DNA of 63,983 bases, filler included, from Porpidia crustulata (taxonomy: Eukaryota), in assembly GCA_964255105.1 (NCBI GenBank). It is 3 parts of 3 records of this genome, joined end to end, with 100 filler letters (N's around TTAATTAATTAA, not from the genome) between each part and the next. Parts side by side here need not be neighbours in the genome. Positions count along the whole stretch, not along the records: positions 1 to 23,246 come from CAXUWE010000075.1; 2 more parts are not named here. One strand, 5' to 3'. This document shows positions 1 through 57,401 of the stretch, piece after piece. How positions within the stretch are numbered: position 1 is the first letter of the stretch; every line of letters starts with the position of its first letter. The translations under genes and the position numbers were made by a program. The notes beneath the pieces were generated by a model. That model saw nothing but the letters and a program-made list of their open reading frames with translations. It was not told the DNA's origin and did not search any database.

Positions 1-1416
1 GTTCGTCGCCGCAGGCGTAGGGGTAGGAGGGGCCGGTGGTTGTGGGGTCGGCTGTCGACGCGGCGTTGTACTGGATTATGCCCAAGATGCCGTTGGGGTT
101 TCCATTGGCGTTGCATGAGGATTGCCAGATGGCGCGCAGCCAGTAGTTGTCGGCAGTTGGGTTGGTTTTGGCTTCGACAATCAGATCGTAGCGTTGGCCC
201 ATAGTGATAAGGATCTGGGTGCTTCATCAGCATCAAGCATGAAGTGCTAGTAGCGAATGAAACCGTCCACATACATTATCGGTCTGATAGGGAACGAGAG
301 GCACTAGGTCGTTTGCAATGACAGTAAAGGTGTGGTTGTCAATCGCAAATCGGAAGTGACCCTCCACAGCTGTGTTCACGATTCGGATGCGGTACTTGGT
401 ACCTTTCTTGAAGACCGTCTTGTACCTAGATCCGCCATTGCCATAAGTGTTGGTGCCGTTGATGAGCCCGTTCTCTAGGGTGGCTGGGATACCGGTCGCC
501 TGCACAGTATGCCATTTGGCGAAGACAGATTGGTGACCCCAATCGGAGAGTGTAAGCATCCCAAGGTCTTCGTCGTAATCGGCTGTAGCAGGGCCATTGA
601 TAATAATTGGGCCGAACAGACCGTCGCCGTACTGTAAACTATCATGAGAGTGATACCAGGTCTGCATAATAAGTAAGCTCTTACTCCAATACAATCTCGG
701 AGATTATCGTGGAAGACTTACACTTCCATACTCAGTAGCTCGAAATTTGTAAGTCATGGTATCGCCGGGAGCCTGTTTGGCCTATTCAGCTGGCTCTTAC
801 CGCGGTGTAGGAAAGGTGGGAAGTGAAGACGTACGATAGGACATTGTGTAACGCCAGGAACGCCGTCATATTGGTTACTCCCAAGTTGTCTCAGACCATG
901 CCAATGGATCGTTGTTCCATTATTTTCCATGCTATTGGTCACATGGACGATCACTATGCCAAAAGGTTAGACCAATACTCGAGTTTGGACCAAGTGCCAT
1001 TTTATAGCATTGAAGTAATAGGCTCACAATTATCACCCCAGTCAGCGGTAATTAGAGGTCCCGGGATACTGCCGTTGACATTCATGGTCAATCGCTCAAC
1101 GCCCTGTTGATTGTCAAACTGGATACTCCCTAAAGTCTTGTAGACAGCTTCGGCTACATACATCAGGAGCCAGAGTCGTGTTCTGAACATTGAGCCAGTA
1201 CTCCCGTGTGACTCCGGTGCTTGGAGTTTCTTCATAGTAGTTTGTATCAATACTGTAGTCACCCCAGCAGCCTCGGGATGTTGCCGTATTAATGCATGAG
1301 GTTCTGCGAGCTTGAACGGAAGGAAAAGCAAAAGAGCGAGAGGCTTCTTTAGGCAAGAAAAGAGAAGTGGCTAAGCCGATACAGCTGGCCAGGGAGGTAA
1401 AACAGAACGTCTTCAT
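1..1416 (-). CDS. Laccase / multicopper oxidase (AA1), multi-exon, 3' part runs off the window start
   Basis: Signal peptide [18 protein letters not shown], then [31 protein letters not shown], copper-ligand motifs TIHWHG and [16 protein letters not shown] and YRIRIVN; pieces are separated by GT..AG introns with CTAAC-type branch sites. Confidence 0.93.
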
Positions 1417-2596: not shown

Positions 2597-3585
2597 CTAA
2601 GCAGCCTGTCCTTTCACAATCTCCGTGATAAGTGCCACAAGCTCACTCTCCTTCAGCTCTGTAATTCCAAACAACTCATTATCGAGGTGTTGAAACTGTC
2701 CACCATAGCCCTCCCTGAAGATCGCACTCATCAAGAAAGCCATGAAGACTCCCATATCCTTCTGTCCCTTTGCCAATTTCTCGTAACTCGATTTCTCATT
2801 TTCCGCCGTCGACCCTCCATCAACCTCTGTCCACCCATCCTCTCCTAGCACCTGCTTCGACAGCCTGAACAAGTCTTGTTGCGTCACCGCCGCATCCTGA
2901 ACATAGACCGCCCGATTTTTCGTTTCCTCAAGCTTCGTCAGCACTCCTATCACAGCCTTGCCGATGGTAGCCCGAGTCGTTGTACTGAACTTGGCAATTC
3001 CGCCATCGTAATACGTGAACTGCTTCTTCTTCAGATTCGGGCCTAGAAAGCCGAGATTCAAGCCAAAATCCAAGAAGGGCCCGGTGATTAGAATGGTATA
3101 GCTAATCTTACCTTGCGCCGCGAGTTCTTCGGCGTATTTACGCTCGGTAATCTTGGGCGCGAAGACGGGCAACGGCGCGGATTTGGGGTTGCATGTGTCG
3201 CAGCCGTATTCGGAGAGGATGAAGCGCTGAACGCCGGCGCTGACAGATGCGTCGAGCAATGCGTGCTGGTTGCCTAGAGCTTCGTGGCCTAGGGCGGAGA
3301 TGACGGCATCTTGGCCCTTTAAAGCATCGATGAGAGTTCTGGGGTCGGTATAGTCTACCTCGCGTATGTCGACGTCGCCAATCGAATCGGGTTTGGTCTT
3401 ACTGTCGGCACGGACTAGGGCCGTGACGTGAAAATGGTGGAAATTAAGGAGAGCTTTTACGATGGCGCTGCCAATGGTGCCAGTTGCCTTTTGGGGTTTC
3501 GTTAGATAATGTGTAGTGGGTTTCGAGTTGTGATCATGGAGGAGAGAAGACTTACTCCTGCGATTGCTACGTTCTTGATGGCCAT
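2597..3585 (-). CDS. NmrA-like / isoflavone-reductase-like NAD(P)H oxidoreductase (CipA-like), 2 exons
   Basis: ATG at 3585 gives MAIKNVAIAG; intron 3555-3489 (GTAAGT..AAG); then ATGTIGSAIVKALL, completing the Rossmann GxxGxxG motif. Also GQDAVISALG, AGVQRFILSEYG, ITGPFLD. Confidence 0.9.
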
Positions 3586-4478
3586 TGTGAGAGTCTAAAC
3601 TGTTATCGCCGTGGATGTTCAGCTTTGGGAGCTGGCAATTTCGGGATTGTTGATTGTTGATTTTGTAATAATATGTAAGATGCCAAGATGCTTAAGAAGA
3701 CCTCTAAAATTATATACTGAGACTTACTAAGTAGTGATACAGCGAGATTGGTTAGACTCGGCCCAGGAACTCCGGCCGGGAAGTCCGCCGTGTACTTCCG
3801 CCGAGATGATTTATAAGAAATTCAGCCCCATGGTGATTGGTAACAGATGATACATACACTCCGGCAGATGTAAGATCTTAATTTAAATTACGTGGGGCCG
3901 ATGTAGTATTACATGCATTGAATTATCTTACCTTCCGGGTACCTCGGTTGCGGTTCCATCGTATCATTATTTCATCAGAGGTCAAATTCACAATTATCAG
4001 TGGCATCTTATTAAGCGAAATTGCAAAATGATGAGCCACTGCAGTGTAAGCCACAGCTTGAAAGCAAGCAATCAACACACATGGAAGCCAGCCCTACCAC
4101 CTCTGCACTAAGCCTATCCTGGTAGCCTACAACATGAAATCTTTTTTGTAGTAGATAGTTCTTCATCGATGATTTCATCACTGGTGCCTGTACCACATCG
4201 TATGACAACGCTGACGTAAAGTATGGCGTAGATACTTGAGGACTAAAAGTCGATCATACGTCCAGCGAAAGACGATGAGTACAACGTATCTGTGATGGGT
4301 TAGACCCATTAATTGGATTAGGTACTACGTACCTGCATTCTCGATACGGAATTCCTTCCGCTCAGAAGCCGATCCCAAAAGGAGGTTTTCGCGACAGAAT
4401 TCCTTTCCCTCCTTAAGTTATTCTCCTTGTATTATAGGCTTAGTCTAGTCAATTGATATAGTTCACTACGACTCCTCA

Positions 4479-4883
4479 CAGTATCCGGGGTATTAATTGT
4501 TAGTACGTGGCGTTTGGCTATACCTAATATGACATCGTTTGTGGTCAGTATATCTACCGTAAAATCTAGTATGTTTTCCATCTGAATCAATAACGGCCAA
4601 CAACGAGCATACATGATGTCAATCAGCTCGTCTGTGCTTGAGCAGGTGCTTAAGCAGGTAATTGAGCAGGTAATTGGGCAGGTAGTTGAGCAGGTAATTG
4701 AGCAGGTAATTGAGTAGGTAATTGAACAGGTAATTGAGCAGGTAATTGAGCAGGTAATTGAGCAAGTAATTAATCAAACACGTGAAAATTTGCCGAGTTA
4801 GGGGCCGAGTATTCTGGCATTGAAAATCACGCGCTAGCAGGGGGGTTAACCGAGCGTACTAACAATCGATACCCCGGATACCG
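4479..4883. mobile_element. MITE-like non-autonomous DNA transposon (Tc1/mariner-pogo-like ends)
   Basis: 29-bp terminal inverted repeats: 4479-4507 cagtatccggggtattaattgttagtacg versus the reverse complement of 4855-4883 cggtatccggggtatcgattgttagtacg (26/29, all differences transitions). TA follows the right end; no coding capacity. Confidence 0.8.
4639..4772. repeat. 12-bp minisatellite (GAGCAGGTAATT)n, about 11 copies, inside the MITE
   Basis: Direct reading of tandem gagcaggtaatt units with scattered substitutions. Confidence 0.92.
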
Positions 4884-5107
4884 TAGTAAGAGAGAAAGAA
4901 ACTAAATCTTATCTCAACCACATAGAATTTGAATATGGAAGGGTAATAATCTTAGTCTAATCTAGGCGGCACTATCCCTAGGTAATAATTATCAAACAAC
5001 GTTTGTCTATAACGAAGCCTCACAAACAAATGTTTTTCGGAAAGCCAATCACCAAATCGGTCACATAAGGCAGATTCCTTATAGCGATGGTCGACGGTAT
5101 ATGTATA

Positions 5108-8100
5108 TCATGACTGGCCTACTACCAGCTTACTTTTCAACGCAATCTGGGCCGCGAACGTTTCCATTGGTACGGTCGCCAGAATATCCAACAGTGGTAT
5201 GTTGGCCTTCATCTCCCTTGTGATCCAGTTTCGCACCTCCAGCGCCACGAGCGAGTCCACGCCGTACTGGTACATGGACCTGCTGGGATCCACTTCGGAC
5301 GGTGGGATGCGCAAGATCTCGGCTGTTTTCTTGACCAACGCGTCTGCGATGATGCTAGGTGCTGAAGCAGGGCCAGCCTCCGAAAGTCGAGACGCAAGAG
5401 AGGCAGCGGTACCTTCGCCTGAGTCGCCGCCGGTGGAAGACGATACACTGGCGATTGCCAATGGGCCGAATCGCGGGTCCCTGAACCATGCAGGACTGCC
5501 GAGGCGGTGAATAGCCATAATGTCCGCCGTTCCTAAGCCAGTGCAAACCTGTGCGGGTGTCGCGTCCTCTTGTGCACCTCTTCTTCCCATCTGGCCGTTG
5601 ATCAGGCTCTTCATGAGAGCGTGGAAGGCAGGCTCACCGATACCTAGAGCCTTTTCCCAGACCTTCAGCGCATCGGAGCCCTTCTCGGCATACACACCAA
5701 TATCGCGCATGATGCCCAAGTTGACTGAAACGACTTTGAGCCCCTGAGCGCGGCGATAGTGGGCAAGCGCGTCCTGGTATGTATTACCGGCAGCGTACTG
5801 GGCTTGACTGGGGTTACCAAAAGTGCCGGACACGGACGAGCAGAAGATCATAAAGTCCAGTGGCCGCTCATGGCCGAAGTAGTTGTGTACGTTCCAGGTT
5901 CCTTGGATTTTCGACTGCAGAGGAAGTGTCCATTCATCGTATGTCATCTTCTCAAAAACGACGTCCCGAAGCACCATGGCCATCTGGATTACTCCTTTGA
6001 TGGGCGGAAGCTGATCTGAGCATTGCTCCATAGCGGATAGAAAAGAGGCTTCGTCGGCAATGTCGCCGCGGTATACCTTAACTTGTGCCCCACGCCCTGT
6101 CAGTTCGTTGACTACAGCCATTGCTTCGGGTTTGGTGTTGCCCGATCGCGAGATGAAGGCGATGTGCCTAGCTCCCGATGCCAGAAACTCCATGGCCAGG
6201 CTGCGACCTAGGCCTCCCAGACCGCCGACAAAGAGGTACGTCGCATTGGGATCGAGTTTGAGCGAGTCCTTGGATTTGGACAGGACGGGAGCCTCCGAAT
6301 CACCTTCCTTGAAAGACAGCAACATCTTGCCACGATGTTTACCCTGCTGCATAGTACGGAAGGCGTCCTCTACCTGACCCACTGGGTATATGGTCATGGG
6401 GTAAGGTGTGCGGAGGATGTTCGTGCGTAGGAGCTTGAAGACCTTGGTGAAAATCTCGCCAACCGTGTCCGGCGCTTGTTCGAGGAGAGTGTTGACATTG
6501 ATGAAAGTAAAGGTCGTGCTTTTGCTGAAAGGTCGCATGTCTAGACGCATATTATCTGTAATATCTCGCAGACCGATCTCGACAAAGGTTCCAAAGGTTG
6601 CAAGGCAGCCCCAAGAGACCCGCAGGAGCTCGCCAGAGAGTGAGTTGAGGATGCAGTCAACACCCCTTCCACCCGTTACTCGCTTAATGCCCTTGACGAA
6701 GCTACTGTCACGTGAATTGAACATATGCTCTTCAGGGATTCCATACCGTTCCATGAGGAGATGACGCTTGTCTTCTGCACCCACGGTGACATAGACCTTT
6801 AGACCCAGGTATGTGGCCAGCTGCAACGCCGCCTGTCCAACTCCTCCGGCTGCCGCGTGGATCAACACAGACTGACCGCGGCGAAGCTTAGCTAGGTTAA
6901 CGAGAGCGAAATATGCTGTGATATGCACCACGGACACCGCTGCAGCCTCTTCGAATGACATGGAGTCAGGTATCTTCTGCGTGGCACGGTAGTCACAAAC
7001 GGTCTTTGTTGCGTGGGTTCCTCCCAGTGTCAAGGTACTCACACGGTCACCAGGCTTGAATACCTCTGATGCCTTGCTGCCCGTCCTGAGGACAATGCCA
7101 CTAGCTTCTTGACCAAGCCCCTTGCCGGTAATCAGAGCCATGGAAGTCATGATATCTCGGAAATTGACGCCAGAGACCTTTACTTCAAGCTCAAGCTCGT
7201 GGTCGGCAAGCGGGTTGAGCAGAGCGCTTCCGTCTGGAACAAAGTGCAAAGTATCCAAAAGACCAGGCTTCCCGATGGCGAGACGGAGGACGGCTTTATC
7301 ATCAGCACTCGACAGGCTCATGACGCGAGTCGAATCGTTGAGGTGGTTGCGCAGATGATCATTCTCCTTGAGGCTCCTGTAGATGCGGTTGACCTGGAGT
7401 AGGCCACCTAGTTCTCTGAATTCATTGTCAACTGTTTCCTTCTCTAGGATACGCGCTGCGAGAGATGGGCCATGTTGCAATCCTTCGCTGCTGAGATGCA
7501 AGACCGAGAATGTAGGGCCGGCAATCTCGTTCCTGACAACCCGTAGGAATCCGTCGACCATCCCTAATAATGGATTATCGCCACAAGTAATCCATAGCAG
7601 CCGCCCACAATTTAGGACCAATGTTCGAATTCGCTGGAATTCGGACTCTGAGAGATTGTCCAACATAGGCTGCTCAAGCTCAAGCAGAGAGATATATGTT
7701 TTGCCTTCGACGGCATCGGCCAACCCTGTGTTGGCCGTGACAGAGTAGCCTCGGTCCTGAAGAACCATCTTAAGCTCTTGGGAACAAGATTGCGCCTCGA
7801 CTGATGACGTGGATGGCTCAAGGATAACCACTTCTTCCATATGGTAACCGTTGATGAGCTTCTTTTCGAGTTCTTGCTTTTCTGTTGCGGCAGAGGTGTA
7901 TAGGGCGAGACATTCGGCGCCTGATGGGATGAAAGAGCGGAGTTGAAATCCTTTCGTTCTCAAGGCAGGCAGCGCAACTTCCTTGTAATTACAAGCAGCA
8001 GGAGCAGCGATGAGGACAATAGCATCAGGCTTGGCCAGGCTCATCAAACGCTCTAAAATGTCGTTGAAGTCTTTGAGATTATGGTTGACTCCGTGAGATA

Positions 8101-11100
8101 TAATGACTAGGTCTGCTGGTGCAATCTCTGGGGATGAAACAGTACCCAAGTCACCGAGTGCGAACGGCTGTCCAAATATTGAGTTTTCGTTGTGATTGTC
8201 GTAGGCACCGTGGGCTAAAGCATACCGAACTTGGGTTGGCAGGATCGTGTCTCTTGACAGTTTGGACATGGTTGCGTTAGGAAGCTCCTCGTAGCTCGCG
8301 ACTAGCTCAATAACATTAACTGATGGACGCTGGTGGACCGCCATGCGGATGAGCTCGAGCAGTCTGTCGTTGGTGGCAGCTGCGCCTGACACGACTTGAC
8401 CGATTTCCGCTGGCTCTATGAGATCCAGGGAATAGTTCCAACAAGGCTCAGAAGTGATTCCAGATGGGTCAACGTCGAGGACTTCAGCATTGTCGACGTC
8501 CATTTCCACCTCCAACAGCCGAAAATCCGTAACGGATAAGAACACCTTCGACACCTCTTTGTTGAACATAGTTATGCCTAAGGACCACTCGTTAAAGCCG
8601 TGTTTCTGCGAGTGGCAAAGCCCTGGCATCAAATATCCTGCCTCAGCAGGTATGTCGACCGAAATCTCCAACTCGCCAATGGCAGTGGGTAAGTAAGGTT
8701 TGTCGAAGCCGAAATCGCTGTTGTCACTGCTGCCGGTACTCCCTAAAGAGCCCTGAAAGACGGCATCGAGAGTTGCCGCGTGGATGAGAAACGGCCGATC
8801 CAATTGCTCCTGGCTAAATGTATCTCCAATGTCGACGTGTCTCACATCGAAAGCCGTCTTGCCGCAGCCAATATGACAATTCTCCACTCCCTGGAAGAGC
8901 TCACCGTACCGAAAAGCGCACTTCGCCATGCGATCGTAGAAGGCCCCCTTGGAGCATGTCTCTGGGTACTCAAGGAGGATGTCACGGTAGTCAGCAATAC
9001 GTGCGGTATCAATGCTGGTGTCCTCATTGGCCATTTGGGAGCTTCTCTGCTCCTCATAGACGATTGTCATTAAGCCACGGCAATTATCTCGCAGCTGGCC
9101 TGTAGGCCCCGTGGCTGATGACATTTTGAACTCCCACCAAGCTGCTGGGGTCGAGCCAGTTGTGGCGATAAGGTGCGGTCTCATATGAAGAACAACTTCG
9201 GTGACCACGTCCTCGGGCAGCGTGATGGCAGCCAAGAAAGAGACATCACGCAACTTGAAGGCACAAGGTGTCTTTCCTGGGTCCACCAACTGCTGGGCGG
9301 CCTCGAGCACAACGCTGACCATTCCGGCACCTGGGAATACCACAGTAGTCCCCACAGTGTGGTCGCGGAGCCAAGGCTCTTCATCAAGACGAATGAAGCT
9401 GCGCCATATGGTCTCATCTTCATCCATCTTTGGCATAGAAGCTCCGAGGAGACTCTTGGTCGGAAACTTCTGCGCAACCAATTCTCGTTGCATGCGAGAA
9501 TCAGCACGAAATACCTGGGAATGGTTCCATGCATACGGCGGGAGGTCTGTCAGTACACTGCAGTTGGAGTCGCCATTGACCTTGCTTATATCAAGAGATA
9601 CACCGTGACGGAAGAGCCCGGCCGCAAGGCTCAGGCTAGTATTGATTGCGTTCTGACCACGAGTGATCATAGACATATAGTCGACACCTTTGATACCATA
9701 GTGGGCCATGATTTGCTCAATCGGCCCTGCTAGGGCACTGTGCGGGCCAATCTCGATGAGCAGGTTGACAGCGTTCTTCCCATCTACCCCGTCGGCGGGA
9801 GAGACCAATTCTTTGACCGCATCGGCGAATAAGACGGGGGAAATTAAGTTGCGGACCCAATAGTAGGGTCCTAGAAGTTCCGGATCGACCTCTTCGCCGG
9901 TGACGCTGGATACCATAATGACGGGCTGCTTGTCGTATACTGTTATTGGCTTCATACCCTCCAGATTGGCAATGGAATTGGCGTATTCTGTCGAGCAGGA
10001 GTGCATATAGGTAGAATGGTATGCGACATCGACCTTGAGCCTTCGGGCAAATACACTGCGCTCTTCAAGGATGGATCGGAGCACTTCCAGTGCGCTTGAG
10101 TCTCCCGAGAGTGTGACATTGGATGGCGAGTTAATACAGGCGACGGTTGCGCGGACCTTTGTCTGAGCCAACAAGTCCTCTGCCTCCTCCCGCGAGCAGC
10201 CCACGGCCATCATCCCCACGGCGGACTTGACACCATTTCCGACCGCTTGCAGTCTCGCCGCGGCCTTGCCCCTGAAATAGGCTGCGGCCACGGCGTCTCG
10301 ATGGGAGAGAGCTCCAATGCTGTATCCTGCAGCTATTTCACCACTCGAATGACCGACTACTTTGGATGGGGTAATACCCCACGACCACAGCTCATCGACC
10401 AAGGCAATCTGGAGCACCGAGCAAATGGGTTGACTTATTTCAGGCACACCCAGTCGAGAACTCTGGGGATCTTTGGCCAGCTCGGTGGCGGGATCCCAAT
10501 CGCAGCCCATCTCGCGCAGCAAGGCGGCTGACTTGGCTACCGAGTCGCGAAACACATCTCTTTCCATCATCTCCACGCCCATCCGGGCCCATTGCGCTCC
10601 TTGGCCTGTGAAGACCCATCCGATCCGGGGTGGCCGGCTGTTCGAGACCCGCGCAGCGTTTTCGCCCACGGTAACCTCTGTCTGCAGTTGCTCTCGCAGC
10701 TCCGCAGCGCTCTCGGCCACACAAGTCGCTTTCCATGAGAAGCCCGATCGCGCCGAGGAGAGAGTGTTTGCAAGATTGGCCTGGTACTTTGAGCTTGATG
10801 CGGCGGGGCCAAGATTGTCCAGGTGTTCGACGAGAGTGTTGCGCTGGCGTGCAAAGCCAGCTTGATCATGGCTGCTCATGACGAAGAGTCTCTTCTTCTC
10901 AGCGTGGGTTTTTGTACCGCCATTTACAATAATCCCGCTACCGCTGCCGATGCCGCTGCGGTGTCCCTCTTCTAAGACGAAGTGCGCGTTCGTGCCACCC
11001 ATGCCAAATCCACTGACGCTCATGCGTTTGGTTCGGCACGCTGGCCATGGCGTTAATTTACCGGGCACCGTCATCTCCCAAATCTCCATTGGGATTTCAG

Positions 11101-12402
11101 GATTGGGCGTCGAGTAATGGATGTTGGGCGGGATGAGCCCGTTTTCCATGGCCAGCACTCCTTTGATAATGCTTGCGACCCCTGCAGCGGCCTCCAGATG
11201 GCCAATGTTCGGTTTGACACTACCAATCCAAAGCTTCGAACGCCTTGATTTGGGCTGGCCAATGGTGTTGTAAATGGCGCCTGTTTCCACCGGATCTCCT
11301 GCTTTAGTCCCCGTTCCGTGTGCTTCGACGTACTGTAAATTTCGTTAGCGAGATTGTTGCAAAGAATTGAGTATATAAGAAGGATTACCTGCGTCGATCC
11401 ATAATCCAGACCATTAGACTCATATACACGCTTGATGAGTGCAGCCTGTGCCTCACCTGATGGCATGGTAACTCCTGGTTTGCGGAATTAGCGGAAAAGG
11501 TCACTCCGCTGTCTTTGCGGGTTAATGAACCCACCTGGTGTCCACCCGTCCGAATTTACCCCTGAAGCTCGGATGATGGCCCGTATAGGATCACCATCTT
11601 CAATCGCCCTGTCAAGTCTTTTCAACACGAGGACTCCGGATCCTTCTCCACGCCCGTAACCATCCGCGTTGGCGTCAAATGTACGTGAAAGACCTTCTTG
11701 ACTAAGGAAGCTCAAATTATTAAGGTGCATGATGCTGTCTGGAGAGAGAATCATCCCGACGCCTCCGGCGATAGCCATGTCTGCCTCTCCCGAATGCAGA
11801 CTTTGGCAGGCCAGGTGAGTGGCTACGTGACTGGACGAACAAGCCGTCTGAACCGTGGCACTAGGGCCGTGGATGTCCAAAAAGTGAGAGATGCGGTTCG
11901 AAATCATCTCCTCGCTAGTTCCGAGGAGGTGGTACTTGGGATAGTGCGTAAAGTCCCTTGACACGGCTTCTCGATAATCACTCATCGAGGAGCCCATGAA
12001 GCAGGAAGTCTGTGTGCCTGCCACTTTCTGAAGCGGCATGCCAGCATTTTCGAGCGCTTCGTATGCAACCTCCATGGCAATACGCTGTTTGGGATCGAAT
12101 GCTGTTGCTTCTGCCGCCGTGATGTTGAAGAATGCTGCATCGAAGACGTATGGGTTCTGTTTGAGGAAATGGCCTCCTTTGGTGGGTAAGACATTCTGAC
12201 GTTTACTGCCTTTAGGGTGATAGAACGCATCCGCGTTAAACCGGTCTGTTGTTGGGGAATGGGCAGATCTTCCGTTCTTCAGAAGTTCCCAAAATCTTGA
12301 TGGGGATGTGGCATCGCCGGGAAACCGACACGCTAGGCCTACAATAGCGATAGGGACGCGGGCTTCGTTTGGACTTGTGGGAGGCATCTCGAGAGAATCC
12401 AT
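5108..12402 (-). CDS. Highly reducing iterative type I PKS (KS-AT-DH-ER-KR-ACP, no recognisable active C-MT), ~2390 aa, partner of the NR-PKS; CurS1/Dhc3/Hpm8/Rdc5 class
   Basis: Exons 12402-11535, 11474-11389 and 11332-5108 splice in frame. KS TACSSS/HGTGT/GHLE, AT GHSSG and VAYHS, DH HTVGTTVVFPG..DAVFQ, ER HAAAGGVGQ, KR GGLGGLG..VLRD..YAAGN, ACP GVDSL. Start may alternatively be the ATG at 12387. Confidence 0.95.
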
Positions 12403-13216
12403 GCCAAAAGTGGAAGCGAGTGAGAAGGTAGTGACAATGCCAGAATAAACATTTATTGAATGCGAATTGTCTAGAAGGTCAAAGTGACGGGGAAAGATAA
12501 GAGGAAGCAAGAGTTGAAGACATGTTGAAGATTTTATGGAAAGCTAGTAAAGGATTCAGGGGTCTCACGCCATGATCCTCCAAAGGGTTGACATAGGCGA
12601 GGTGTTGAGACATTGATCAAAAATCGGTGAAGTAGGCTATCACATCGTATGGCTTTTGTCGAAGAACTATCTTCACCGTAAGTTAGGAAGGATTTGGCAG
12701 AGCTTACCTGCGCGCAGCTCAGCTTACTTACATATATCAGACTACATACAGTCATAGCTTACGCAACTGGGTTGAATGTAACTAGACAGGGCGTGACAAA
12801 CTAATTGAAGGTACATTGGCCCTTGCACCGCCAGCGAGTATTCTAGGATCTACGTTTATTCTTCGTAGCCCGTACCATCAGATGTCTGTGAGAGACTACG
12901 GTACGTAGGTCCATCGAAGCCAGATGCTCTTTCGTCGGGCATGTTTATCCGAATAGACTTAATCGCATCCAAGTGGTTTGAGTCTACCTGTAAGTCTTCT
13001 GACCTTGGTCTAAAAATTGTTGTATATATGTTACAATCACAATCGCTTATCTACCTTCTTACTAAGCGAGTATCGCGCTCAAGCCGGACCACGTCAAATG
13101 GTGATTTTCAATACGCCGAACGCCAGGCTGGGCTCTCTCCCAGGAACGTGAAAAAATTGAGTCACCTGCCAGCCCAAAGCAACGCTGTGTCCTCCTTACA
13201 ACGAGGGTTCAGATTT

Positions 13217-15024
13217 TTAGTCGGCGTACTGCTCGAAGTCCATGTTGTATTGAGGGTTGTTCAGGAGTCCAAGTAGGTCGGCTGCTTGAAAATCTTCATA
13301 CAAGATGTAATCGAAGTCTTTGTCTATCCTGTCGATGTCGCTGACATTCCGATGCGATGTCGGTGGCGTCTCGTGATTGTGCTGGCGATCTCGTGCATCA
13401 TCCACGTCCAGAGGATGTTGGTTTGAAGTACAGTATGACTGGGATGTAGAAGGGAGGGAGCACATGGGTGTATTTTGGTTGGACATTTGCTTGAAACTTG
13501 ACCTCCTTGACAAATTCATGCTGTGGGTATCAGCAAAATCCGCATGATTATGGGGATCGAGGCTTAATTACCAGCCTTGAGCGCCCACGCCGTTGCGCAA
13601 GACCTCTTTGTAGTCAAAGACCAAGTAGTGATTGGCTGCCAGGCTTTCCCACTGCTTCTGCCGTGACTCTACAATCTGAGAAAAGCTGATCTGAAAATGT
13701 TCTCTTGACGCACGAAAGTGGGCTGTCTTGAGTAATCCGTCAAGCGTCATGTATTCTGCAAGAATTTGTTAGTATAAACTCGAAAGATCGCGACATCGCG
13801 GAGGATAGATACTTTCCTGAAAGAATGAGGAGGGCGAAAGATTGTGCCGCGGTGCTTAAATTCGTGATGATGCCAAAGACCATTCCTGCTGCCGTTCTTG
13901 CATCGCTTGCCCAGTCTTTTGTTCTTGCACGACGACTGGATATTTCCGCCATTTTGTGGTTGACCTGGCCATAGGGTAAGAGATTGGCGAATCAAGGCAG
14001 TGCGCTACCTTACCTGCTTGGCGGCCACTAGGCGAGCTCTTCCTTCATCTCGAACTAATCTCTTCTCCTCCCAACGGAAAACTTCCCAGCTGAGAAGACT
14101 ATATATCATGCCCACGGCGCTGGAGACACTCCCCAGTCGTCCGAGTAGGTTACCAAACTGCTCCATTGAGGTTACAGCCTGAGACGAAGCGCTAGAGTGC
14201 TGATAGAGTCGGCGTATAGTATCGTTGAACTCATTTCTATCCGGTATAATGTTGTCCTTGATCGCCTTGAGCTTTGCTTCCAACTTCTGCGTGCGTTTAA
14301 TCATCGAACAAGGAGCTGACGTCATAGCAGAGCTGTCAAGAAGAAGTGAATCTGTCTCATGTGTTATGTTTGTAGAAATGAGAGACTGCTCTATAGATCT
14401 GCTGGTCAACGGGCTCCCCAGGGTCACAGGTGACTGCTGTCTAGCTTCTATCGTGTACGGGGGCGAGGAGGACTTGTTAAAATTGACATTCAACAATGAT
14501 TCTTGGCCTGGCGGTAGCAGGTTGGTCATGAGTCTATCTGATTTATTGGCAGAGTGAGACGATTGGTTATCGGTGTCCCTTGAAGAGGGCCACGTCGTTT
14601 GCCCGTCGTTTTGCGGTCTACGAGGTTTCTTTGCTACGGGTGTACAGCGCCTTCTCTCCGAACGGTTGACTAAGGAGTGGCGAGAGTGAGATGCATCTCG
14701 ACTAGGGTTCGAAATAGCTGGAGACGGCGAGATGGTCGCATAAGAATCTGCTAAGTGGGTATTTCTGGTGTCTGCTGCTATAGCCTTCAAGGCCGTGACC
14801 CATTCGGCGGGGCAGTCAAAACCTTCGAAGCTGGTCTGGAAAACTTTTGTACCATTGGGGCCAATGATCGATGTGGAGATCTTCACACGTGGGACTGAGA
14901 AGAACGATATTTCCAGGTGCTCGAATGACTCCATCGAGACGGACAACGGGGACATGTGCTTGACCAAGCTCAATTTGAGGTAGGTTATAGTTTGAGCATC
15001 TAATACTCTTAGAGCTGCAGACAA
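13217..15024 (-). CDS. Multi-exon hypothetical protein (possibly pseudogene) between the two PKS genes
   Basis: ORF pieces 15024-14005, 13952-13740, 13750-13568 and 13519-13217 are linked by branch-site/AG acceptors and GTAAGG/GTAATT donors. One needed donor reads GAAAGT rather than GTAAGT. No clear ATG and no recognisable domain; basic KKPRR patch present. Confidence 0.5.
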
Positions 15025-15731: not shown

Positions 15732-15775
15732 GAGTCGCCAGAGTCGCCAGAGTCGCCAGAGTCGCCAGAGTCGCC
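15732..15775. repeat. 9-bp tandem repeat (GAGTCGCCA) x ~5
   Basis: gagtcgcca repeated perfectly in the inter-PKS region. Confidence 0.9.
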
Positions 15776-16423
15776 AACCAATGACGGAAGAATATAATAT
15801 GCCTTATCAGTACCGTGCCTTGCTGCGGGGCTTTATCATCCCTGAAGTCTCCCTTGAGAGACCAGATCAATAAAAGAATATGTGGCATCGTGAGCAGTCT
15901 CACTTGTCTCTTTGGTCGATGATTTTTGGAGCAGAATTAGTCTTAAGAGTGGAATGTCGAAAAAGGTGAGAGAGATCAACTAAGGGAATGAGTCGGTGAA
16001 TGCCGATGTTTTTCTTGGAAAAAGATTCCTCATATCTTATGAGCATGCGTATGCTTTCGCTGCAGGCAAAATATAGGTTGTTGTAAGCCTTGTGTTGGAT
16101 TCCTCCGAGCGTACAACATACGGTGAAGACAGTAGATGTGGGATATCTTCTTCGTCCAGCCAATCCTCTTCCTACCTGAGCCCCTGCAGGTTCCTCACTC
16201 AGGACTAATCAAATCCTTCGGAGTGTTACTTTGAAGGAATAATATTTATGGATACATCAACAGTTGCGTGGATTATAGTGAGATTTTCGCGTAGTGATAA
16301 TCGAGTAGAGATAAAGCAAGTATGTTCCCACATGGCTGGTCCAAGACCTCTGGAAGTCACTAGATCCATCTCAAAGCTGTCTCCTACATTGCCGGCTGTC
16401 AAGTCTCAACAAGACAGAACAAA

Positions 16424-19400
16424 ATGGCGGATTTGCAGATGTCACCGACGACGATTCTCCTCTTTGGAGATCAGACAGACTCGTGGGTCAACGGTATCGA
16501 CCAACTCTACCAGCAGGCTGCCTCAACACCATGGCTAAAGTCGTTTTTGGGTCAGCTGGCTGACGTCCTCAATGCGGAAGCAAGGAAGATAACGCTGGAC
16601 CGTGCAATACAAGACAGCCTGGGCCGTTTCTCGAGCCTCCAAGAACTGGCCGACCGATACCGCTACGATACCGACGAACTGGGTGTAGTGCGATGTCTCT
16701 TACTATACACTGTCCGAGTAGGTACCCTACTTCAGTGGGTGAAGCGAGAGCCGCACCTTCTCGGACCACATGCTCGTACTGAATGGCTCGGTATATCTGG
16801 GGGCCTGCTCCCCCTTTCAGCCCTCACCATCGCCAAAGATTTCGAAACCTTGTACGACGCATGTCTAGAGATGGGCCGACTCGTGATGCGAGTCTGCAAA
16901 CTCACTTCGGTTCGATCTCGGGCCGTAGAAGATCAACCGGGTGTGTGGGGTTGGGCGGTGCTGGGAATCTCGCCCAATGATCTCCGCAAGGCGCTGGACC
17001 AGTTCCAACAGAGCGCCGGCATCCCACCCACCAAAAGAGCACAGGTGGGCGTGACCGGAGCCGGATGGAGCACCATCATTGGCCCTCCGTCGGTCTTGCA
17101 ACTTGTGATCAAGCAATGTCCCGCAGTGAGGGGTCTTGCGAAGAATTCGTTGGAGATCAGGGCCATCCAACACACCCTCAACATCTCATCCGCCGAGATC
17201 GACTTCATGGTCGGCAACAACTCGACTTTTTTGGACCGACCGCTCAGATATCCAAACCATCGTCTCTGGGGCATGGACGATCCAGCAGTCCCCTATGTCA
17301 CCTGGGGCCACCAGCTCAGTGCTGTATGCTCGCAACTTTTGTCCCAGCCTTTGGATATCACGCAGGCCGTGGGCAAGCTCGCTTCTGAAATTGAGGGAGT
17401 CGGTGCCGTGAGGGTGATTCAAGTAGGATCTAGCAGCCATACGCCTTACTTGACAAGTGCGTTAAAGGTAGCGGGAAGGAGCGTATCGGTTCTTGATCAA
17501 CGTTCTCTCGAACCTACCGATGATGGAGACTCATCCTCGAAGGCTGATCGTATTGCCATTGTGGGAATGGCCGGACGAGGTCCCGGAAGCGACAATGTAG
17601 ACAAGTTCTGGGACGTCATCATGTCTAAAGAAGATCTGTGCCAGGAAGTCCCCAAGTATCGCTTCAACGTAGACGACTTCTATTGCCCACAGCATGAACG
17701 TGGTGACCAAAGGTGCAAAATGACAACCCGATACGGCTGCTTCATGGACAATCCGGGCCATTTCGATTCACGCTTCTTCCATATCTCGCCTCGAGAAGCA
17801 ATGTTGATGGACCCAGGCCACCGGCAATTTTTGATGAGCACCTATGAAGCCTTAGAAATGGCAGGCTATTCACATGGACAGACAAAGAAGACAGATCCCA
17901 ACCGCATCGCCGCCTTCTTAGGGCAGTGCACCGATGACTGGTATAGCCACAGTCACCCTACACTCGGATGCGACGCGTATACTTTGCAGGGGGTTCAGCG
18001 AGCGTTGTAAGTATATAAGCGCCTTTCGTTTTTTTAAGAGCTTGCGGGTTTGATGCTGTTCCATCTCGTCTCCAACTACTCCAACCTCCTTTTGAACTCC
18101 ATTGTCTTGAACCCTTCTCCTCTCGAGACATATTCGAACCGGAGAAGCTAATTGATTTTTTACGTAGTGGCCCTGGACGGCTTGCCTGGCAATTCAAGTG
18201 GGAGGGTCCGACCTACTCCCTCGATTCGGCATGTGCAGGTACCACAGCCGCCATTCACCTGGCTGCCATGAGCTTGCTGTCAAAGGACATCGACATGGCT
18301 GTTGCAGGAGCCGCGAATATCCTGAGTACGCCCCACTCGTTTACCTCTCTCAGCGACTCCGGTGTGCTGTCCGACACGGGCAACTGCAAGACGTTCCGTG
18401 ACGATGCAGACGGCTACTGCCGCGGCGATTTCGTTGGTGCGGTGGTACTCAAACGGCTGGAGGATGCCGTAGCCCATAATGATAATATTCTAGCAGTAGT
18501 GGCTGCCTCGGGAAGGAATCATTCCGGAAACTCGACATCTATTACCACCTCGGACGCGCATGCTCAGGAGCGACTCTTTCGGAAAGTCATGCGTAACGCG
18601 CAAGTTTCTCCGGATGATATCTCCTTTGTTGAGATGCACGGAACAGGTACTCAAATTGGCGATCCAGCAGAGATGGGCGCCGTGGGCAGCACTTTCAAGC
18701 ATAGGTGCCGTGCTAACGGGCCATTGCCTGTGGGTGGTATCAAGGCAAACATTGGCCACAGCGAAGCGGCCGCCGGCATGGCAGAACTTCTCAAATGCAT
18801 CATGATGTTCCAAAAGGATATCATACCGCCACAAGCGGGTATGCCCCATGCTCTCAACCCGAGATTTCCACCGCTGTCCGAGCTCAATATCGAGATTCCT
18901 TCGGAGCCCAAGGCATTCAACAGGAAGTCTCAGCAGCCGAGACGCATTCTTCTCAACAACTTCGACGCAGCAGGTGGTAACGCATGCATATTACTGGAAG
19001 ACTTCAATCCCGGTCACGAGCAGCATGCCGCAGACCCTCGATCAAACCATGTCGTTGTATCTTCTGCCAGAACGAAAGCCTCCTATCATGCAAACAAAGC
19101 CAAGCTCCTCGAGTGGCTACAGGCAAATCCAGGGGCCAGGATCGAAGACGTTGCCTACACCACGACAGCGAGGAGGATGCACCACCCTTTTAGATTCGCC
19201 TGCACGGTATCGTCGATTCAAGACCTGACTACGAAGCTTGAGGCCTCTGAGACGACCTCATCACCATCAGCATCGTCGCAGCCACCTATCGTCTTCGTCT
19301 TTACGGGACAGGGGTCCCACTACGCAGGTATGGGTGCAGAATTGTACCGCACGAGTCCGGTTTTCCGTGAGACAGTCGATCTGTGCGTGGAAATCTGCGA

Positions 19401-22400
19401 TGGCAACAACTTCCCGCGATTCCTAAATATGATAATCGATGATGGAGTCGACGAGTCCACCAAGAGCACTGCACAGATACAACTGGCGGTCATCACCTTG
19501 GAGATCGCCCTAACTGTCTTCTGGCGATCGATTGGGATAGAAGCTGCTATGGTCATAGGCCATAGTCTTGGGGAGTACGCTGCTCTACACGCTGCTGGAG
19601 TCCTGTCGCTATCAGATACTCTGTACCTGGTCGGCCATCGTGCCCACATGCTCCTGGAGCGATGTGAACCTGACTCTTGTGCCATGCTCTCAGTGTTGAC
19701 TTCAGCAGCGACTGTGAGAGACCACCTCCTTCAGTCTTCTTCTTGTAATGTGGCATGTATCAACAGTCCTAGTGCTACCGTTGTCAGCGGGACTGCCACG
19801 GATTTAGCACATTTCCAAGCATCCATAACGGCACAGGATGCAAAAGTCCGCGTGAAGAAACTATCCATGCCGTTTGCATTCCATTCATTTCAAATGGATC
19901 CACTTCTACAGGATTATGTCTCCCTTGCAGGCGGTGTTACATATGCAGCTCCCAAGATTCCCGTATCATCAACGCTGCTGGCCTCTATTGTCGATGGCCC
20001 AGGTACCTTCAACCAAGACTATCTCGCCCAGCAGACGCGTCAGCCCGTTGACTTCGTCGGCGGACTTGATGCTGTGATGTCAAGGTTGAATAACCCAGTC
20101 TGGCTTGAAATCGGACCGGCAGCGGTTTGCACATCTTTTGTGCGCGCCACCCTCTCCCCGCCCCCGGCCAAGGTCATGCATAGTATGGAGGCTAATACTA
20201 AAAACTGGACATCCATTTCCAAAACCCTCTCGGCGGCTTACATGAACGGTGTTGACATTGACTGGCTTGCACTCCACACACCCTACGAGAGCAACCTCGA
20301 ATTATTGACGCTCCCGGCGTACGCATGGGATATGAAAGACTATTGGGTCAGTTGGCCCGAAAGAGGCAGCGAGAGCGTGCCTGAGAAGTCTAAAGCTGCC
20401 TCATCCGAACCCTTTGTCGCTACATGTGCGCAGTACCTTGTCCAGAAATCCACCTCCCCAAAGATTCAAGTTACTTTCCGAGCCTCAATTTCTGATCCAG
20501 GATTCCTAGCATTCATTGACGGCCACAAAATGCAACAAATTGGCCTTGCTTCCGGGAGTGTCTTCTGCGACGCAGCTGCAACAGCGGCCAAATATGCTAT
20601 CGAGTACGGCGGCAGAAAGGGTGTAACCGCGACTAGCTTAACACTTCACGATCCCGAGCTTCTCGCCCCTTTGACAAAGAAACTTGTCGGCGTCGACGGA
20701 GAACTCGTCACAACAGCTGTCATGGAGAGTTCGTCCTCGGACACCGTCTTGGTTTCATTCAAGGCTACATCGACATATGCATCACATGATCTAGGCTCCA
20801 TCAGAGTCGAAATTCGTAGTCCTGAGAAGACTCAGGCCGAATGGGACCGAGTGTCATACTTCATCAAGGCCAAGATGGATGAGAGGATTAGAGAGGTCAA
20901 AGAAGGTTCAGGCCATAGAATGCAGCCAGAAATCATCTACGCGCTTTTTGCTAATGCGGTAGAGTTCGATTCAGCTTTCAAGGGTATTCAGGAGGGGTAT
21001 CTAGCCAGCGACTTCCAGGAGGCTGCAGCAGTGGTTGTTCTCCCGAATGATCCTCCTGGTACTCGATTTACATTTTCACCGTATTGGGGTGAAGCTCTGG
21101 TGCATCTGGCTGGCTTCATGGTGAACGGAAACCCCAGTCGATCTCCCCATACAACCTTCATTGTGATGGGGTTCGAGAGCACCCAGCAGACGGTCGCTTT
21201 TGAGACCGGAAAACAGTATCTCGCGTATACCCGCATTTCAAGTTGGGAAAAGGACACGGCGTACTGTGACGCGTTTGTTTTCGATCCTGATTCGTCGAAA
21301 TTGGTCATGCAATGTATCAACCTACGGTACCAGGAGCTCCCCAGAGCCACTTGGCGACACATTCTTGAGGGACCCCATGCAGCACCTGGAAAAAGTGCTC
21401 CTACACAGCGCATCCATAAAACGACTGTAGAAGAAATCAAGAATAACGACGCGGCTGAGGAGAGAGAACAAGTATCTCAAGACTTAGAGGGGGAGGCTAC
21501 AGCTGCAGGAGTATTCGATAATATCCTGAACAGCATCTCCAAGTCTACGGGTAGCGACTCTTCTGACTTTACAGATGACACCGTGGTAACCGACCTCGGT
21601 GTCGACTCCATTATGGCCATCGAGATCGTCGCCACCGTGAAGGCTGAATCAGATCTAGACCTACCCGCCTCATTCATCTTCGACTATCCCACAGTTGGCG
21701 ATCTCCGTCGCGCCTTTGGAAGAGAAATAAAGTCCCAAAAGGCTCCAGAGCCCAAGATCAGCTCGACACCCTCCAGTAATGGGGCCTCCACTCCAGAAAG
21801 CACTAAGTCTGACCCTATAGTAAGGTCGGAATCAGCATCGTCCTCGGGCTCGAGCATGGTGCACATCAATGCGGGCATATCGACTCCAGAGGTTAACGAG
21901 AACACCAAGCGACGGGAGATACCATCCAATGACAATGTTATTGACACCTCGCCCGCTCCCACCGTCAGAATTACGCTGCTGCAGGGCCGTCCGAGCTCTG
22001 GCAAGACTCCTTTCTACCTGATGGCCGATGGTACAGGGTCCATCGCGACCTACATCCACCTGCCACCTTTCAAGTCCAAGATGCCCGTCTATGGTGTCGA
22101 GTCGCCCTTTCTCCGATGTCCGACCAGATTGACCAGCCAAGTTGGTATTACGGGAGTGGCCCGGCTTATCGTTGCTGCGCTGGTAAAGGCTCAACCCAAG
22201 GGGCCGTTGTTCATCGGCGGCTTCTCGGCCGGCTGCATGATCGCGTTCGAGGTCTCCCGACAATTGGCCGCGGCCGGCCGCAAGGTGGATGGTCTCGTGC
22301 TCATCGACCTGTGTTGCCCGCGACCTACGCTACTTGACGAGGCCGCAATCAGGGAAGAATCACAGGTCGGCGTGGCAGTCTTCGAGGCCGCCGTGGCTAA

Positions 22401-22833
22401 AGATGGCCTGTGGAGCGCAGCAGCTACCACGGATGAACATTTGAGTGCATACTTCGTGGCCATGAGGTTGTACAACCCGCCTGCGATGACCGTCGAGGAG
22501 CGACCTGCCAGGACAGCGGTGATCTGGGCCGAAAATGGGTTGATCAATCATGTTGCCGGCGACCCCAGAATGATGAAGATGCTGGTAAGCGAGGGGATTC
22601 CGACCAAGGCTTATCCAGGCTACATGGAGGATCCCAAGCTGTCGCCGATGGCGTGTCTAGTTCCGGATAAGACGAAGGCAGATCTAGGGCCGAACGGGTG
22701 GGATAGGTTTGCTGGAGACGTGTTGGCGCTGTCTGTGGGTGCAAATCATCTTGAGCTGCCTATGCCTGGGCACGTACATCTGCTTCATGCGCAGTTGCAA
22801 ACGGCGTTTGAACATTTTGACGCCTCGAGTTAG
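16424..22833 (+). CDS. Non-reducing iterative PKS (SAT-KS-AT-PT-ACP-TE), ~2082 aa, curvularin/DAL-type (CurS2/Dhc5-like)
   Basis: Single intron 18007-18167 splices in frame. SAT GISGG (Ser nucleophile), KS DSACAG/EMHGTGT/GHSE, AT GHSLG, PT DGHKMQ..WGEALVHLAGF, ACP DLGVDSIM, TE GGFSAG..LIDL..ANHL. Confidence 0.95.
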
Positions 22834-41731: not shown

Positions 41732-42329
41732 CTTCCACGGCTCGATTTCTCGAATTTGCCGATTGACCTGCTGAAGTTGGAGTTCTCCGCAATTTGAACG
41801 GCGTTTGACGCTCTATCGATTCGCCGACAGGTGGATTTCGAAACGGCAGGACATGTCGCATGAGGTGGGGGGACTTACAGACATGTCTTATCACATCAAT
41901 CGTAGATCCAATTGCGCCTTATCGTCCGACTAGCACAATGCCAAATCCATGGAGTTCCGAGCTGGCTGATTGGATGTGACCTGACACATCATGCAGCTTC
42001 GGATCACAAACGGCTGGTCATTTGAGGAAGGCTCAACTTGCTTGATGTAGCTTAGCACCAGCAGAGCAGAGCTTGACCGTCTGGTCTAACCCACACTTGT
42101 CTCTACATGATAAATGGAGTGATACTGAACGTACGGTCTTGCAATTGGTATTAAACACGGTGACTAAAGTTGAATCACACTGGTCATCTGGTTGCGAAAG
42201 ATATCTGAGTTTGAGATGCCGATCATCCTCCGACCCTAGAAAGCTCGGGCCACCCTACGCGTCTCGTCATCTTCAAACGCGCTGGTGATTTGTGAGGATG
42301 TGGCCTGGCTCAACAAGTCCGCACCAAGA

Positions 42330-46566: not shown

Positions 46567-46666
46567 NNNNNNNNNNNNNNNNNNNNNNNNNNNNNNNNNN
46601 NNNNNNNNNNTTAATTAATTAANNNNNNNNNNNNNNNNNNNNNNNNNNNNNNNNNNNNNNNNNNNN
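46567..46666. other. Artificial assembly linker (N44-TTAATTAATTAA-N44)
   Basis: Identical to the linker at 23247-23346. Confidence 0.97.
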
Positions 46667-56321: not shown

Positions 56322-57401
56322 ATGCACGCCTCCTTACAAAATGGTACCGTGTCGCCAGTCTCCAGCGGACAGATTTCACCGACCGTCAATGAATTCCCTC
56401 GACAAGCAGGACAAACTCTGAAGGTGTCGAAACGTGACAACGGTCTCATCTCACCCGCCAAGTCGACATTCTCGTTCAACGATGATGAGCCTGAAGCTCA
56501 ACCGATCTCAAACATGCCGGATCTGATCGATGAAAAACAGATAGCACGACACGTATCCCGTGGCGCTCCTGGAGACGCTGCTCTGATGTCGATGGTCCAG
56601 CGAGATCAAGAGGGTACAGATTTGGCAAGGAGAAAAAGTCAATTTTACACGGAAGTGTTCGCTTACAGGGAACCAAATCTCTCGATCAGAGAGAAGACCT
56701 ATAGAAACTCGGTTATCACTGCTGAAGTAAAGACCAACGTTATCGTAAGAATGCTCTAGAGCAATTGGTAACTTTTAGCGGACGTGCTAACAAGGCGTGA
56801 GTAGGTCAAGGATGAATTCGTGTTCCTCGAAGATTTCTCCCAACATCTATCCCAACGATACCAAAGACCCACCACCTCGATTTTCATAACCCTCGACCAT
56901 TCAGCTTGCCTACTGCTAGCTGGCACATTCGACTCAGCTTACATTCTCACCATAACCGCCCTTCCCTCACAAATTCAACCTGTCACAAATAAGCGAAACA
57001 CAGCACTGGTTCAAGCCTTTATGAACGACTCCCTTGGCGTCTCAAATGATAGAGGTGTGGTAAGATTTGTGGGCATCGGGGAGGAATATCTTGGCACAAA
57101 TGGCATGACAGTACTCGGCGAAATTGAGAGCTTAAGCAGAGGCGAGGACAACGGTGGTGAAACGACACGATCAAATACAATTAGGAGAGGCCGAAGCCGA
57201 AAGGTACCTAAGCCCAAGGAACTTGTGCCACAAGAAAAGAGCCGACGTCCGTCACCGACCGCAGCGAAAGCACCAAGTCCTCCACTCAAGAGCCCACCTA
57301 TGCCGGCGGTGCCTACCGAGAAGAGTGCGCTAGATAAAAAGGCAGAAAAGGTACAGAAGATGGGACGAAGACGGAGTTTTCTGTCTATGTTTGGAAAATA
57401 G
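56322..57401 (+). CDS. Fungal MIF/tautomerase-domain protein, 2 exons
   Basis: SVITAEVKTNVI / intron ~56745-56804 / VKDEFVFLEDFSQHLSQRYQRP..HSACLLLAGTFDSAYILTITALPSQIQPVTNKRN..RGVVRF. Confidence 0.8.

What the first reader, a model, noticed from the sequence alone, without database searches (positions are those of the whole stretch)
20524..21354. NR-PKS product-template domain has the complete curvularin-type (DAL, C8-C3 aldol) fingerprint rather than the resorcylate one
Seen: codons for His at 20524, Phe at 20965 (+147 aa), Glu at 21091 (+189), Tyr at 21328 (+268) and Trp at 21352 (+276). Recalled knowledge, to be verified: the Aspergillus terreus AtCURS2 PT has the catalytic pair H1308/E1497 and regiospecificity residues F1455, Y1576 and W1584, which are exactly these offsets. 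Resorcylic acid lactone synthases such as CcRADS2 have Asp, Tyr, Phe and Leu at those positions. Inference: the PKS pair makes a dihydroxyphenylacetate macrolactone like dehydrocurvularin, a much rarer class than the zearalenone/hypothemycin type that automatic annotation would probably assign.
Basis: partly seen in the sequence, partly recalled or inferred. Interest (0 to 1): 0.8.

Follow-up and report, generated by a model that had tools for sequence, protein, structure and literature searches.

The report
Hybrid fungal polyketide synthase pair
This fungus has a two-enzyme assembly line whose front part comes from the radicicol-type pathway and whose back part comes from the curvularin-type pathway, so it probably makes a curvularin-style ring on a different chain, a compound not yet identified.

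Summary
The five codons are real and align exactly to AtCURS2 H1308/F1455/E1497/Y1576/W1584, so C8-C3 (DAL-type) first-ring cyclisation is well supported. Three corrections. (1) The Glu is not diagnostic: CcRADS2, Hpm3 and LasS2 have Glu too; only F/Y/W discriminate. (2) The signature is common: 119 of the 120 best PT hits carry it. (3) This is not a curvularin orthologue. The NR-PKS is a mosaic: SAT-KS from the radicicol (RAL) lineage, MAT-PT-ACP-TE from the DAL lineage, switching near residue 925-940. The neighbouring HR-PKS is also RAL-lineage. AU tests reject the non-mosaic trees. The same mosaic marks 39 of 63 classifiable homologues, and the closest named relatives are from Agyrium, Teloschistes and Oidiodendron. 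One precedent is reported, the Rhytidhysteron RAL-HR/DAL-NR pair, described as incompatible with no known native product (PMC12721105). Best reading: an old, intact hybrid lineage making a dihydroxyphenylacetate macrolactone or acyl ester of unknown chain length. Boldest reading: a natural 14-membered DAL like the engineered radilarin.

The parts
1..1416 (-). Laccase / multicopper oxidase, multi-exon, cut off at the contig start
   Evidence: Pfam Cu-oxidase; best PDB hit laccase 3SQR, E 5e-53; start codon read from frames
2597..3585 (-). NmrA-like NAD(P)H-binding protein
   Evidence: Pfam NAD_binding_10 and NmrA; start read from sequence
5108..12402 (-). Highly reducing PKS, KS-AT-DH-ER-KR-ACP, 2392 aa, introns 11475-11534 and 11333-11388; radicicol/resorcylide (RAL) lineage
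   Evidence: Pfam; model intact with catalytic motifs, 64% to Hpm8, 60% to Rdc5, 58-60% to DAL-clade HR-PKSs; trees and AU test
13217..14955 (-). Uncharacterised, probably multi-exon ORF between the two PKSs; no Zn2Cys6 motif; most of it is missing in one relative
   Evidence: No Pfam match up to E 5, no Atlas hit, no Zn2Cys6 pattern in the window; a contig of run X6 joins 12687 to 14583. Exon borders not resolved.
16424..22833 (+). Non-reducing PKS, SAT-KS-MAT-PT-ACP-TE, 2082 aa, intron 18007-18167; mosaic gene
   Evidence: Model; Pfam; all 11 catalytic sites checked are present
16424..19357 (+). SAT-KS half (to about residue 925), radicicol (RAL) lineage
   Evidence: SAT 63% / KS 83% to RADS2 against 50% / 73% to AtCURS2; informative sites 57 RAL: 14 DAL; AU p 1e-4 against grouping with DAL
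19357..19402 (+). Best-fit crossover zone (residues 925-940, start of MAT)
   Evidence: Best split of 177 informative sites, Fisher p 8e-20, not corrected for choosing the split; sliding identity flips at about residue 850-900
19402..22833 (+). MAT-PT-ACP-TE half, DAL lineage
   Evidence: 73/70/75/68% to AtCURS2 against 59/51/51/55% to RADS2; informative sites 14 RAL: 92 DAL; AU tests
20524..21354 (+). PT core: catalytic H1314 (20524) and E1503 (21091); DAL-diagnostic F1461 (20965), Y1582 (21328), W1590 (21352)

Best explanation
A collaborating HR-PKS/NR-PKS pair of hybrid origin. One old crossover near the KS-MAT border joined a radicicol-lineage block (HR-PKS, intergenic DNA and SAT-KS, which lie together in the DNA) to a DAL-lineage block (MAT-PT-ACP-TE). 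Shown: the anatomy, the intact catalytic residues, the mosaic ancestry, the DAL-type PT. Inferred mechanism: the HR-PKS builds a reduced, hydroxylated tetra- or pentaketide; the co-inherited SAT-KS accepts it and adds four malonyl units; the His/Glu PT with the F/Y/W pocket closes C8-C3 to a 2-acyl-3,5-dihydroxyphenylacetyl chain; the DAL-lineage TE (S1881/D1908/H2055) releases it. My odds for the product: macrolactone DAL of 12 or 14 members 0.55 (dehydrocurvularin itself about 0.1), acyclic acid/ester or other release 0.3, resorcylate or nothing 0.15. The laccase and NmrA-like protein may tailor it (weak inference).
For: Residue mapping. Domain-wise identity flip and informative-site switch, which true RAL synthases do not show (Hpm3 43:22 left, 61:34 right). 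SAT-KS tree: window clade with RADS2 at 100/99, grouping with DAL rejected at p 1e-4. MAT and TE trees: with DAL at 100/99 and 100/100, grouping with radicicol type rejected. HR-PKS: inside the Rdc5-containing clade (SH-aLRT 100), grouping with DAL HR-PKSs rejected at p 9e-11. The same mosaic in 39 of 63 classifiable hits, 24 canonical, 57 of 120 too short. Of 24 NR/HR hit pairs that share a contig length, the 10 with canonical NR-PKSs have HR-PKSs clearly closer to DAL references; the other 14 are closer to RAL references by 0.5-4 points, and the 12 of these 14 placed in the tree fall in the RAL clade. The junction is crossed by contigs of four other runs, so it is no assembly chimera. No second HR-PKS of this kind in the assembly: next full-length KS match 47%.
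Against: No product, expression or enzyme data. Chain length and release mode cannot be read from sequence. [quoted passage not shown] The direction of the crossover is not settled: a tree with radicicol-type plus all DAL C-terminal halves is not rejected (p 0.10), and the hybrids' C-terminal halves are one clade only at 83/95, so one origin is likely, not shown. CurS1, Dhc3, Dhc5, Rdc1 and the Rhytidhysteron proteins were not in my sets; stand-ins were labelled from recall. The AU groups for MAT and TE were named after the first trees were seen, and used LG+G4 without the mixture model.
Confidence: 0.75

Rival explanations
1. Ordinary curvularin-type cluster: an orthologue of CurS1/CurS2 making 10,11-dehydrocurvularin or a near congener.
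For: Full F/Y/W signature; MAT, PT, ACP and TE 68-75% identical to AtCURS2. A RAL-lineage HR-PKS can still make a C8 starter, as in the Rhytidhysteron ADA ester (PMC12721105 figure legend).
Against: HR-PKS and SAT-KS are RAL-lineage; orthology fails for both. No MFS exporter or Zn2Cys6 regulator on the 23-kb contig (their presence in curvularin clusters is recalled), though the contig is cut on both sides.
Confidence: 0.1
2. The hybrids are the ancestral DAL stock: the DAL pocket arose in a radicicol-lineage cluster, and the curvularin/cytosporone clusters are the recombinants that later took a different HR-PKS + SAT-KS block.
For: In the FastTree PT tree DAL PTs are sister to the radicicol group (1.00) and cytosporone-clade PTs nest among hybrids; this topology is not rejected on the joined C-terminal domains (p 0.10).
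Against: The MAT tree keeps all RAL synthases together at 98/96; the best C-terminal tree has RALs as one clade (78/88) and hybrids as one clade (83/95); the DAL PT stem is long (0.41), so its attachment is unreliable. This rival changes the history, not the predicted chemistry.
Confidence: 0.25
3. A mismatched, nearly silent pair: the TE cannot cyclise the chain and only traces of acyclic esters form, as reported for Rhytidhysteron in yeast.
For: PMC12721105 passage; TE gating in CcRADS2/AtCURS2 swaps (PMC4334309 passage); the ORF between the PKSs is largely missing in one relative.
Against: Both reading frames and all 11 catalytic sites are intact; none of the 21 other hybrids checked has a substitution at those sites (gaps only in truncated or mis-modelled proteins); the arrangement persists across several fungal classes and at 65-90% KS-to-TE identity, which is hard to square with decay.
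Confidence: 0.15

Closest known systems
Rhytidhysteron rufulum RAL-type HR-PKS / DAL-type NR-PKS pair (Wang et al. 2020; names RrDalS1/2 recalled; seen only through PMC12721105)
   Same: RAL-associated HR-PKS beside a DAL-type NR-PKS, ascribed to intracluster recombination; starter synthesis (HR-PKS, SAT) has a separate history from the rest
   Different: Its sequences were not in my sets, so the breakpoint could not be compared. PMC12721105 puts its HR-PKS sister to the trans-resorcylide enzyme; the window's HR-PKS is in a separate subclade with Agyrium, Teloschistes and Lojkania. Here KS travels with SAT.
AtCURS1/AtCURS2 (10,11-dehydrocurvularin, Aspergillus terreus)
   Same: Domain order; PT H/F/E/Y/W; MAT-PT-ACP-TE 68-75% identical
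   Different: SAT only 50%; SAT-KS and HR-PKS from another lineage; laccase and NmrA-like neighbours
CcRADS2 / Rdc5 radicicol synthases
   Same: SAT 63%, KS 83% to RADS2; HR-PKS in the clade that holds Rdc5; His/Glu dyad
   Different: PT 51% identical with F/Y/W instead of Y/F/L; MAT and TE are DAL-lineage; no halogenase or P450 on the contig
Radilarin (engineered 14-membered DAL from CcRADS/AtCURS swaps; PMC4334309 passage)
   Same: The natural mosaic resembles the engineered combination: radicicol-type starter side, curvularin-type ring closure and release
   Different: Starter length here is unknown; no product shown
Cytosporone and aldaulactone clusters
   Same: Same PT signature and C8-C3 closure
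   Different: The Cytospora, Diaporthe amygdali and Alternaria NR-PKSs taken as stand-ins are DAL-type along their whole length and the Cytospora/Diaporthe HR-PKSs group beside the DAL clade

Membership tests
Benzenediol lactone HR-PKS/NR-PKS pairs | Adjacent HR-PKS (KS-AT-DH-ER-KR-ACP) and NR-PKS (SAT-KS-MAT-PT-ACP-TE), both in the macrolactone clades | tested here: met
DAL-type (C8-C3) NR-PKS | PT residues F/Y/W at AtCURS2 1455/1576/1584 | tested here: met
   the functional role of these three residues is recalled from Xu 2013 (not held); PMC11026467 says three residues switch the mode without naming them
DAL-type (C8-C3) NR-PKS | PT groups with AtCURS2, apart from RAL PTs | tested here: met
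   PT tree; joined C-terminal tree 100/100
DAL-type (C8-C3) NR-PKS | Product has a dihydroxyphenylacetate core | not testable with these tools
   Needs expression and NMR
Curvularin synthases (CurS1/CurS2, Dhc3/Dhc5 orthologues) | HR-PKS in the DAL HR-PKS clade | tested here: not met
   AU p 9e-11; stand-ins used, true CurS1/Dhc3 not in the set
Curvularin synthases (CurS1/CurS2, Dhc3/Dhc5 orthologues) | SAT-KS orthologous to CurS2 | tested here: not met
   AU p 1e-4; informative sites 57:14 for RAL
Resorcylic acid lactone synthases | PT Y/F/L (C2-C7) | tested here: not met
   F/Y/W here; Y/F/L in 22 of 22 RAL-type PTs
Rhytidhysteron-type RAL/DAL hybrid pairs | RAL-lineage HR-PKS with DAL-type PT | tested here: met
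Rhytidhysteron-type RAL/DAL hybrid pairs | Same crossover / common origin with the Rhytidhysteron cluster | not testable with these tools
   Proteins not among the hits; Wang 2020 not held

The most novel reading that the evidence does not exclude
A widespread, ancient third class of benzenediol lactone clusters: natural radicicol-front/curvularin-back recombinants, conserved in lichen-associated and other ascomycetes, that are productive rather than orphaned and make a natural 14-membered dihydroxyphenylacetate lactone (radilarin skeleton, so far described as an engineered product), possibly oxidatively coupled by the neighbouring laccase.
Probability: 0.2. Interest if true: 0.75.

Novelty: new variant of a known kind. 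Interest (0 to 1): 0.45.

Why it matters
PMC12721105 states that the native products and roles of hybrid, orphaned DAL clusters are unknown and treats the Rhytidhysteron pair as incompatible. Dozens of intact pairs with one shared breakpoint make that question testable and show where evolution itself cut an NR-PKS (between KS and MAT, keeping HR-PKS, SAT and KS together), a useful rule for domain swapping. It also warns that HR-PKS-based markers will call such clusters RAL and PT-based calls will call them curvularin; both miss the hybrid. The PT fingerprint alone, as first reported, is known and common.

Tried and rejected
Primary papers Xu 2013 and Wang 2020 are not held; a search for the residue names was swamped by unrelated accession numbers (15 listed, none relevant). 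A scan of metagenome contigs gave 46 pattern matches and 0 confirmed relatives, so gene neighbourhoods of distant hybrids could not be read and the laccase/NmrA link rests on close relatives only. Accession numbers for cluster members could not be obtained, so HR/NR pairing in other genomes rests on equal contig lengths. No RNA holder listed among 20 runs; no evidence on expression either way. Atlas and Pfam gave nothing for the middle ORF. No earlier findings of the scan matched. Rejected: Glu as a DAL marker; assembly chimera (and independent genomes); a second, DAL-type HR-PKS partner elsewhere in the assembly (assembly is fragmented, 2447 contigs); membership of genes beyond 23246, which lie on other contigs joined by N-linkers. 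No structure or complex was predicted: it would not decide the product. The Oidiodendron HR-PKS in the PMC12721105 supplement hits CurS1/Dhc3/ZEA2 but lies on a far longer scaffold than the hybrid NR-PKS P0019 (31 kb), so I did not count it for or against.

Full report
Setting. Window bases 1-23246 are one whole contig (C75) of a fragmented 22.9-Mb fungal assembly; the rest of the window is other contigs joined by N-linkers. The contig carries, in order, a laccase cut at the contig start, an NmrA-like gene, an HR-PKS (minus strand, 5108-12402, 2392 aa), an unassigned ORF, and an NR-PKS (plus strand, 16424-22833, 2082 aa, SAT-KS-MAT-PT-ACP-TE). The nearest named relatives are from Teloschistes flavicans (HR-PKS 78%), Agyrium rufum (HR-PKS 76%, NR-PKS domains 74-87%) and Oidiodendron maius (NR-PKS domains 76-90%). 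Contigs of a run labelled lichen metagenome cover the laccase, NmrA-like gene and both PKS genes as far as laid, at about 90-95% identity. A lichen-associated host is an inference.

Observation. All five codons are present at the stated offsets and align without ambiguity to H1308, F1455, E1497, Y1576 and W1584 of AtCURS2 as named by UniRef. His and Glu sit on the PksA catalytic His and Asp. That F1455, Y1576 and W1584 control regiospecificity is recalled from Xu et al. 2013, which is not held; passages of PMC11026467 confirm only that three residues switch the mode. Independently, these columns read F/Y/W in at least 95% of 43 DAL-type PTs and Y/F/L in 22 of 22 RAL-type PTs, and the window matches the DAL state at 11 of 11 such columns.

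Corrections. CcRADS2 has E1520, Hpm3 E1485, LasS2 E1485 and a Fusarium PKS13-type protein E1484 (the PKS13 label is mine, from recall). Glu is therefore shared across these synthases and is no DAL marker; Asp appears mostly in more distant PTs. The signature is also not rare: 119 of the 120 listed hits (of 188 found) carry HFEYW.

The real feature is mosaic ancestry. Per-domain identity to AtCURS2 versus RADS2 is SAT 50/63, KS 73/83, MAT 73/59, PT 70/51, ACP 75/51, TE 68/55. Of 208 columns that separate five radicicol-type from five DAL-type references, the window matches one state at 177: 57 RAL to 14 DAL before residue 925, 14 to 92 after residue 940. RAL synthases outside the reference set (Hpm3, LasS2, PKS13-type) show no such switch, nor do canonical DAL-type proteins. 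With 18 sequences, the SAT-KS tree puts the window's clade with RADS2 (100/99) and rejects its union with DAL enzymes (p 1e-4); MAT and TE trees put it with DAL enzymes and reject union with the radicicol type (p 2e-38 and 4e-9). The HR-PKS falls inside the RAL clade beside Rdc5 in trees of 72 and 22 sequences, and union with DAL and cytosporone-type HR-PKSs is rejected (p 9e-11). The tree sets were hand-picked subsets of the hits (71 NR-PKSs and 72 HR-PKSs, then 18-22). Labels such as Dhc-like, LasS1, ResS1-like, Cla2-like and cytosporone clade are mine, from organism and recall; the true CurS1, Dhc3, Dhc5, Rdc1 and RadS1 were not among the hits. Since HR-PKS, intergenic DNA and SAT-KS are contiguous, one crossover at the start of MAT explains everything.

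Breadth. Among the 120 PT hits, 39 are mosaic, 24 canonical and 57 too short to classify. The query was itself a hybrid, so this ratio is no frequency in nature. Named mosaics come from Agyrium, Oidiodendron, Exophiala, Cladophialophora, Hypoxylon, Podospora, Diaporthe batatas, Corynespora and Didymella. In 24 NR/HR pairs matched by equal contig length, the 10 with canonical NR-PKSs have HR-PKSs 8-23 points closer to DAL references; the other 14 are 0.5-4 points closer to RAL references. No substitution was seen at 11 catalytic sites in 21 other hybrids. Four other runs hold the cluster, one contig of 23.6 kb spanning laccase to NR-PKS, and contigs in all four cross the junction; one run lacks most of the middle ORF. 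These are close relatives, so they show that the assembly is right, not that laccase and NmrA belong to the pathway.

Mechanism. Shown: intact enzymes, DAL-type PT, RAL-type starter side. Inferred from the established two-enzyme scheme (PMC9114375 and PMC12721105 passages): reduced starter, transfer through SAT, four extensions, C8-C3 aldol, TE release. KS controls chain length and TE gates release in swaps (PMC11026467, PMC4334309 passages), so the PT cannot tell ring size or even whether a ring closes. A pentaketide starter as in radicicol (recalled) would give the 14-membered radilarin skeleton; a C8 starter as in Rhytidhysteron would give a 12-membered DAL or an ADA ester.

Against my reading. 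No product or expression data. The direction of the crossover is open (p 0.10) and the hybrids' C-terminal halves form one clade only with moderate support. The single tested natural hybrid was nearly unproductive in yeast.

Novelty. A RAL-HR/DAL-NR pair is already in print for Rhytidhysteron (seen only via PMC12721105: passages, and searches of its two supplements, the second cut). Searches listed no paper describing a broad hybrid clade or such a cluster in lichen fungi; I saw listings only for most, and Wang 2020 with its supplement, unseen, may already cover part of this. Papers read as passages: PMC9114375, PMC12721105, PMC5386248, PMC4334309, PMC11026467, PMC8374128. Verdict: observation confirmed, interpretation partly supported, new variant of a known kind, interest 0.45.

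Noticed in passing
window:23247-23346 and 46567-46666: Runs of N flanking TTAATTAATTAA: artificial linkers between contigs, so the window is three unrelated contigs.
   Followed up: yes
window:13217-14955: ORF without family match between the PKSs, with a basic stretch that could be a nuclear localisation signal; kept in two relatives, largely deleted in at least one. Possibly a decaying regulator.
   Followed up: partly
window:4640-4775: Tandem run of about 12-base units (GAGCAGGTAATT-like) between the NmrA-like gene and the HR-PKS; 4277-4885 is skipped in two relatives.
   Followed up: no
window:1790-1945 and 15732-15780: Short tandem repeats: about five ACACGGCGTGTG-containing units upstream of the laccase, and (GAGTCGCCA) x5 upstream of the NR-PKS; could be regulator binding sites.
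   Followed up: no
window:28918-36825: Large minus-strand gene with alpha-amylase and glycosyltransferase domains, probably an alpha-1,3-glucan synthase (name inferred).
   Followed up: no
window:25271-26035, 40193-44930, 56805-63453: Heme-thiolate peroxidase-like gene, MFS transporters, ORC4, a MIF-like gene and DUF7923 on the other two contigs; not part of the cluster.
   Followed up: no
protein hits P0410, P0419, P0421, P0163, P0166: Teloschistaceae-named records (Gallowayella, Xanthomendoza, Xanthocarpia) hold hypothemycin-clade RAL-type pairs, so lichen fungi carry both plain RAL and hybrid clusters.
   Followed up: partly
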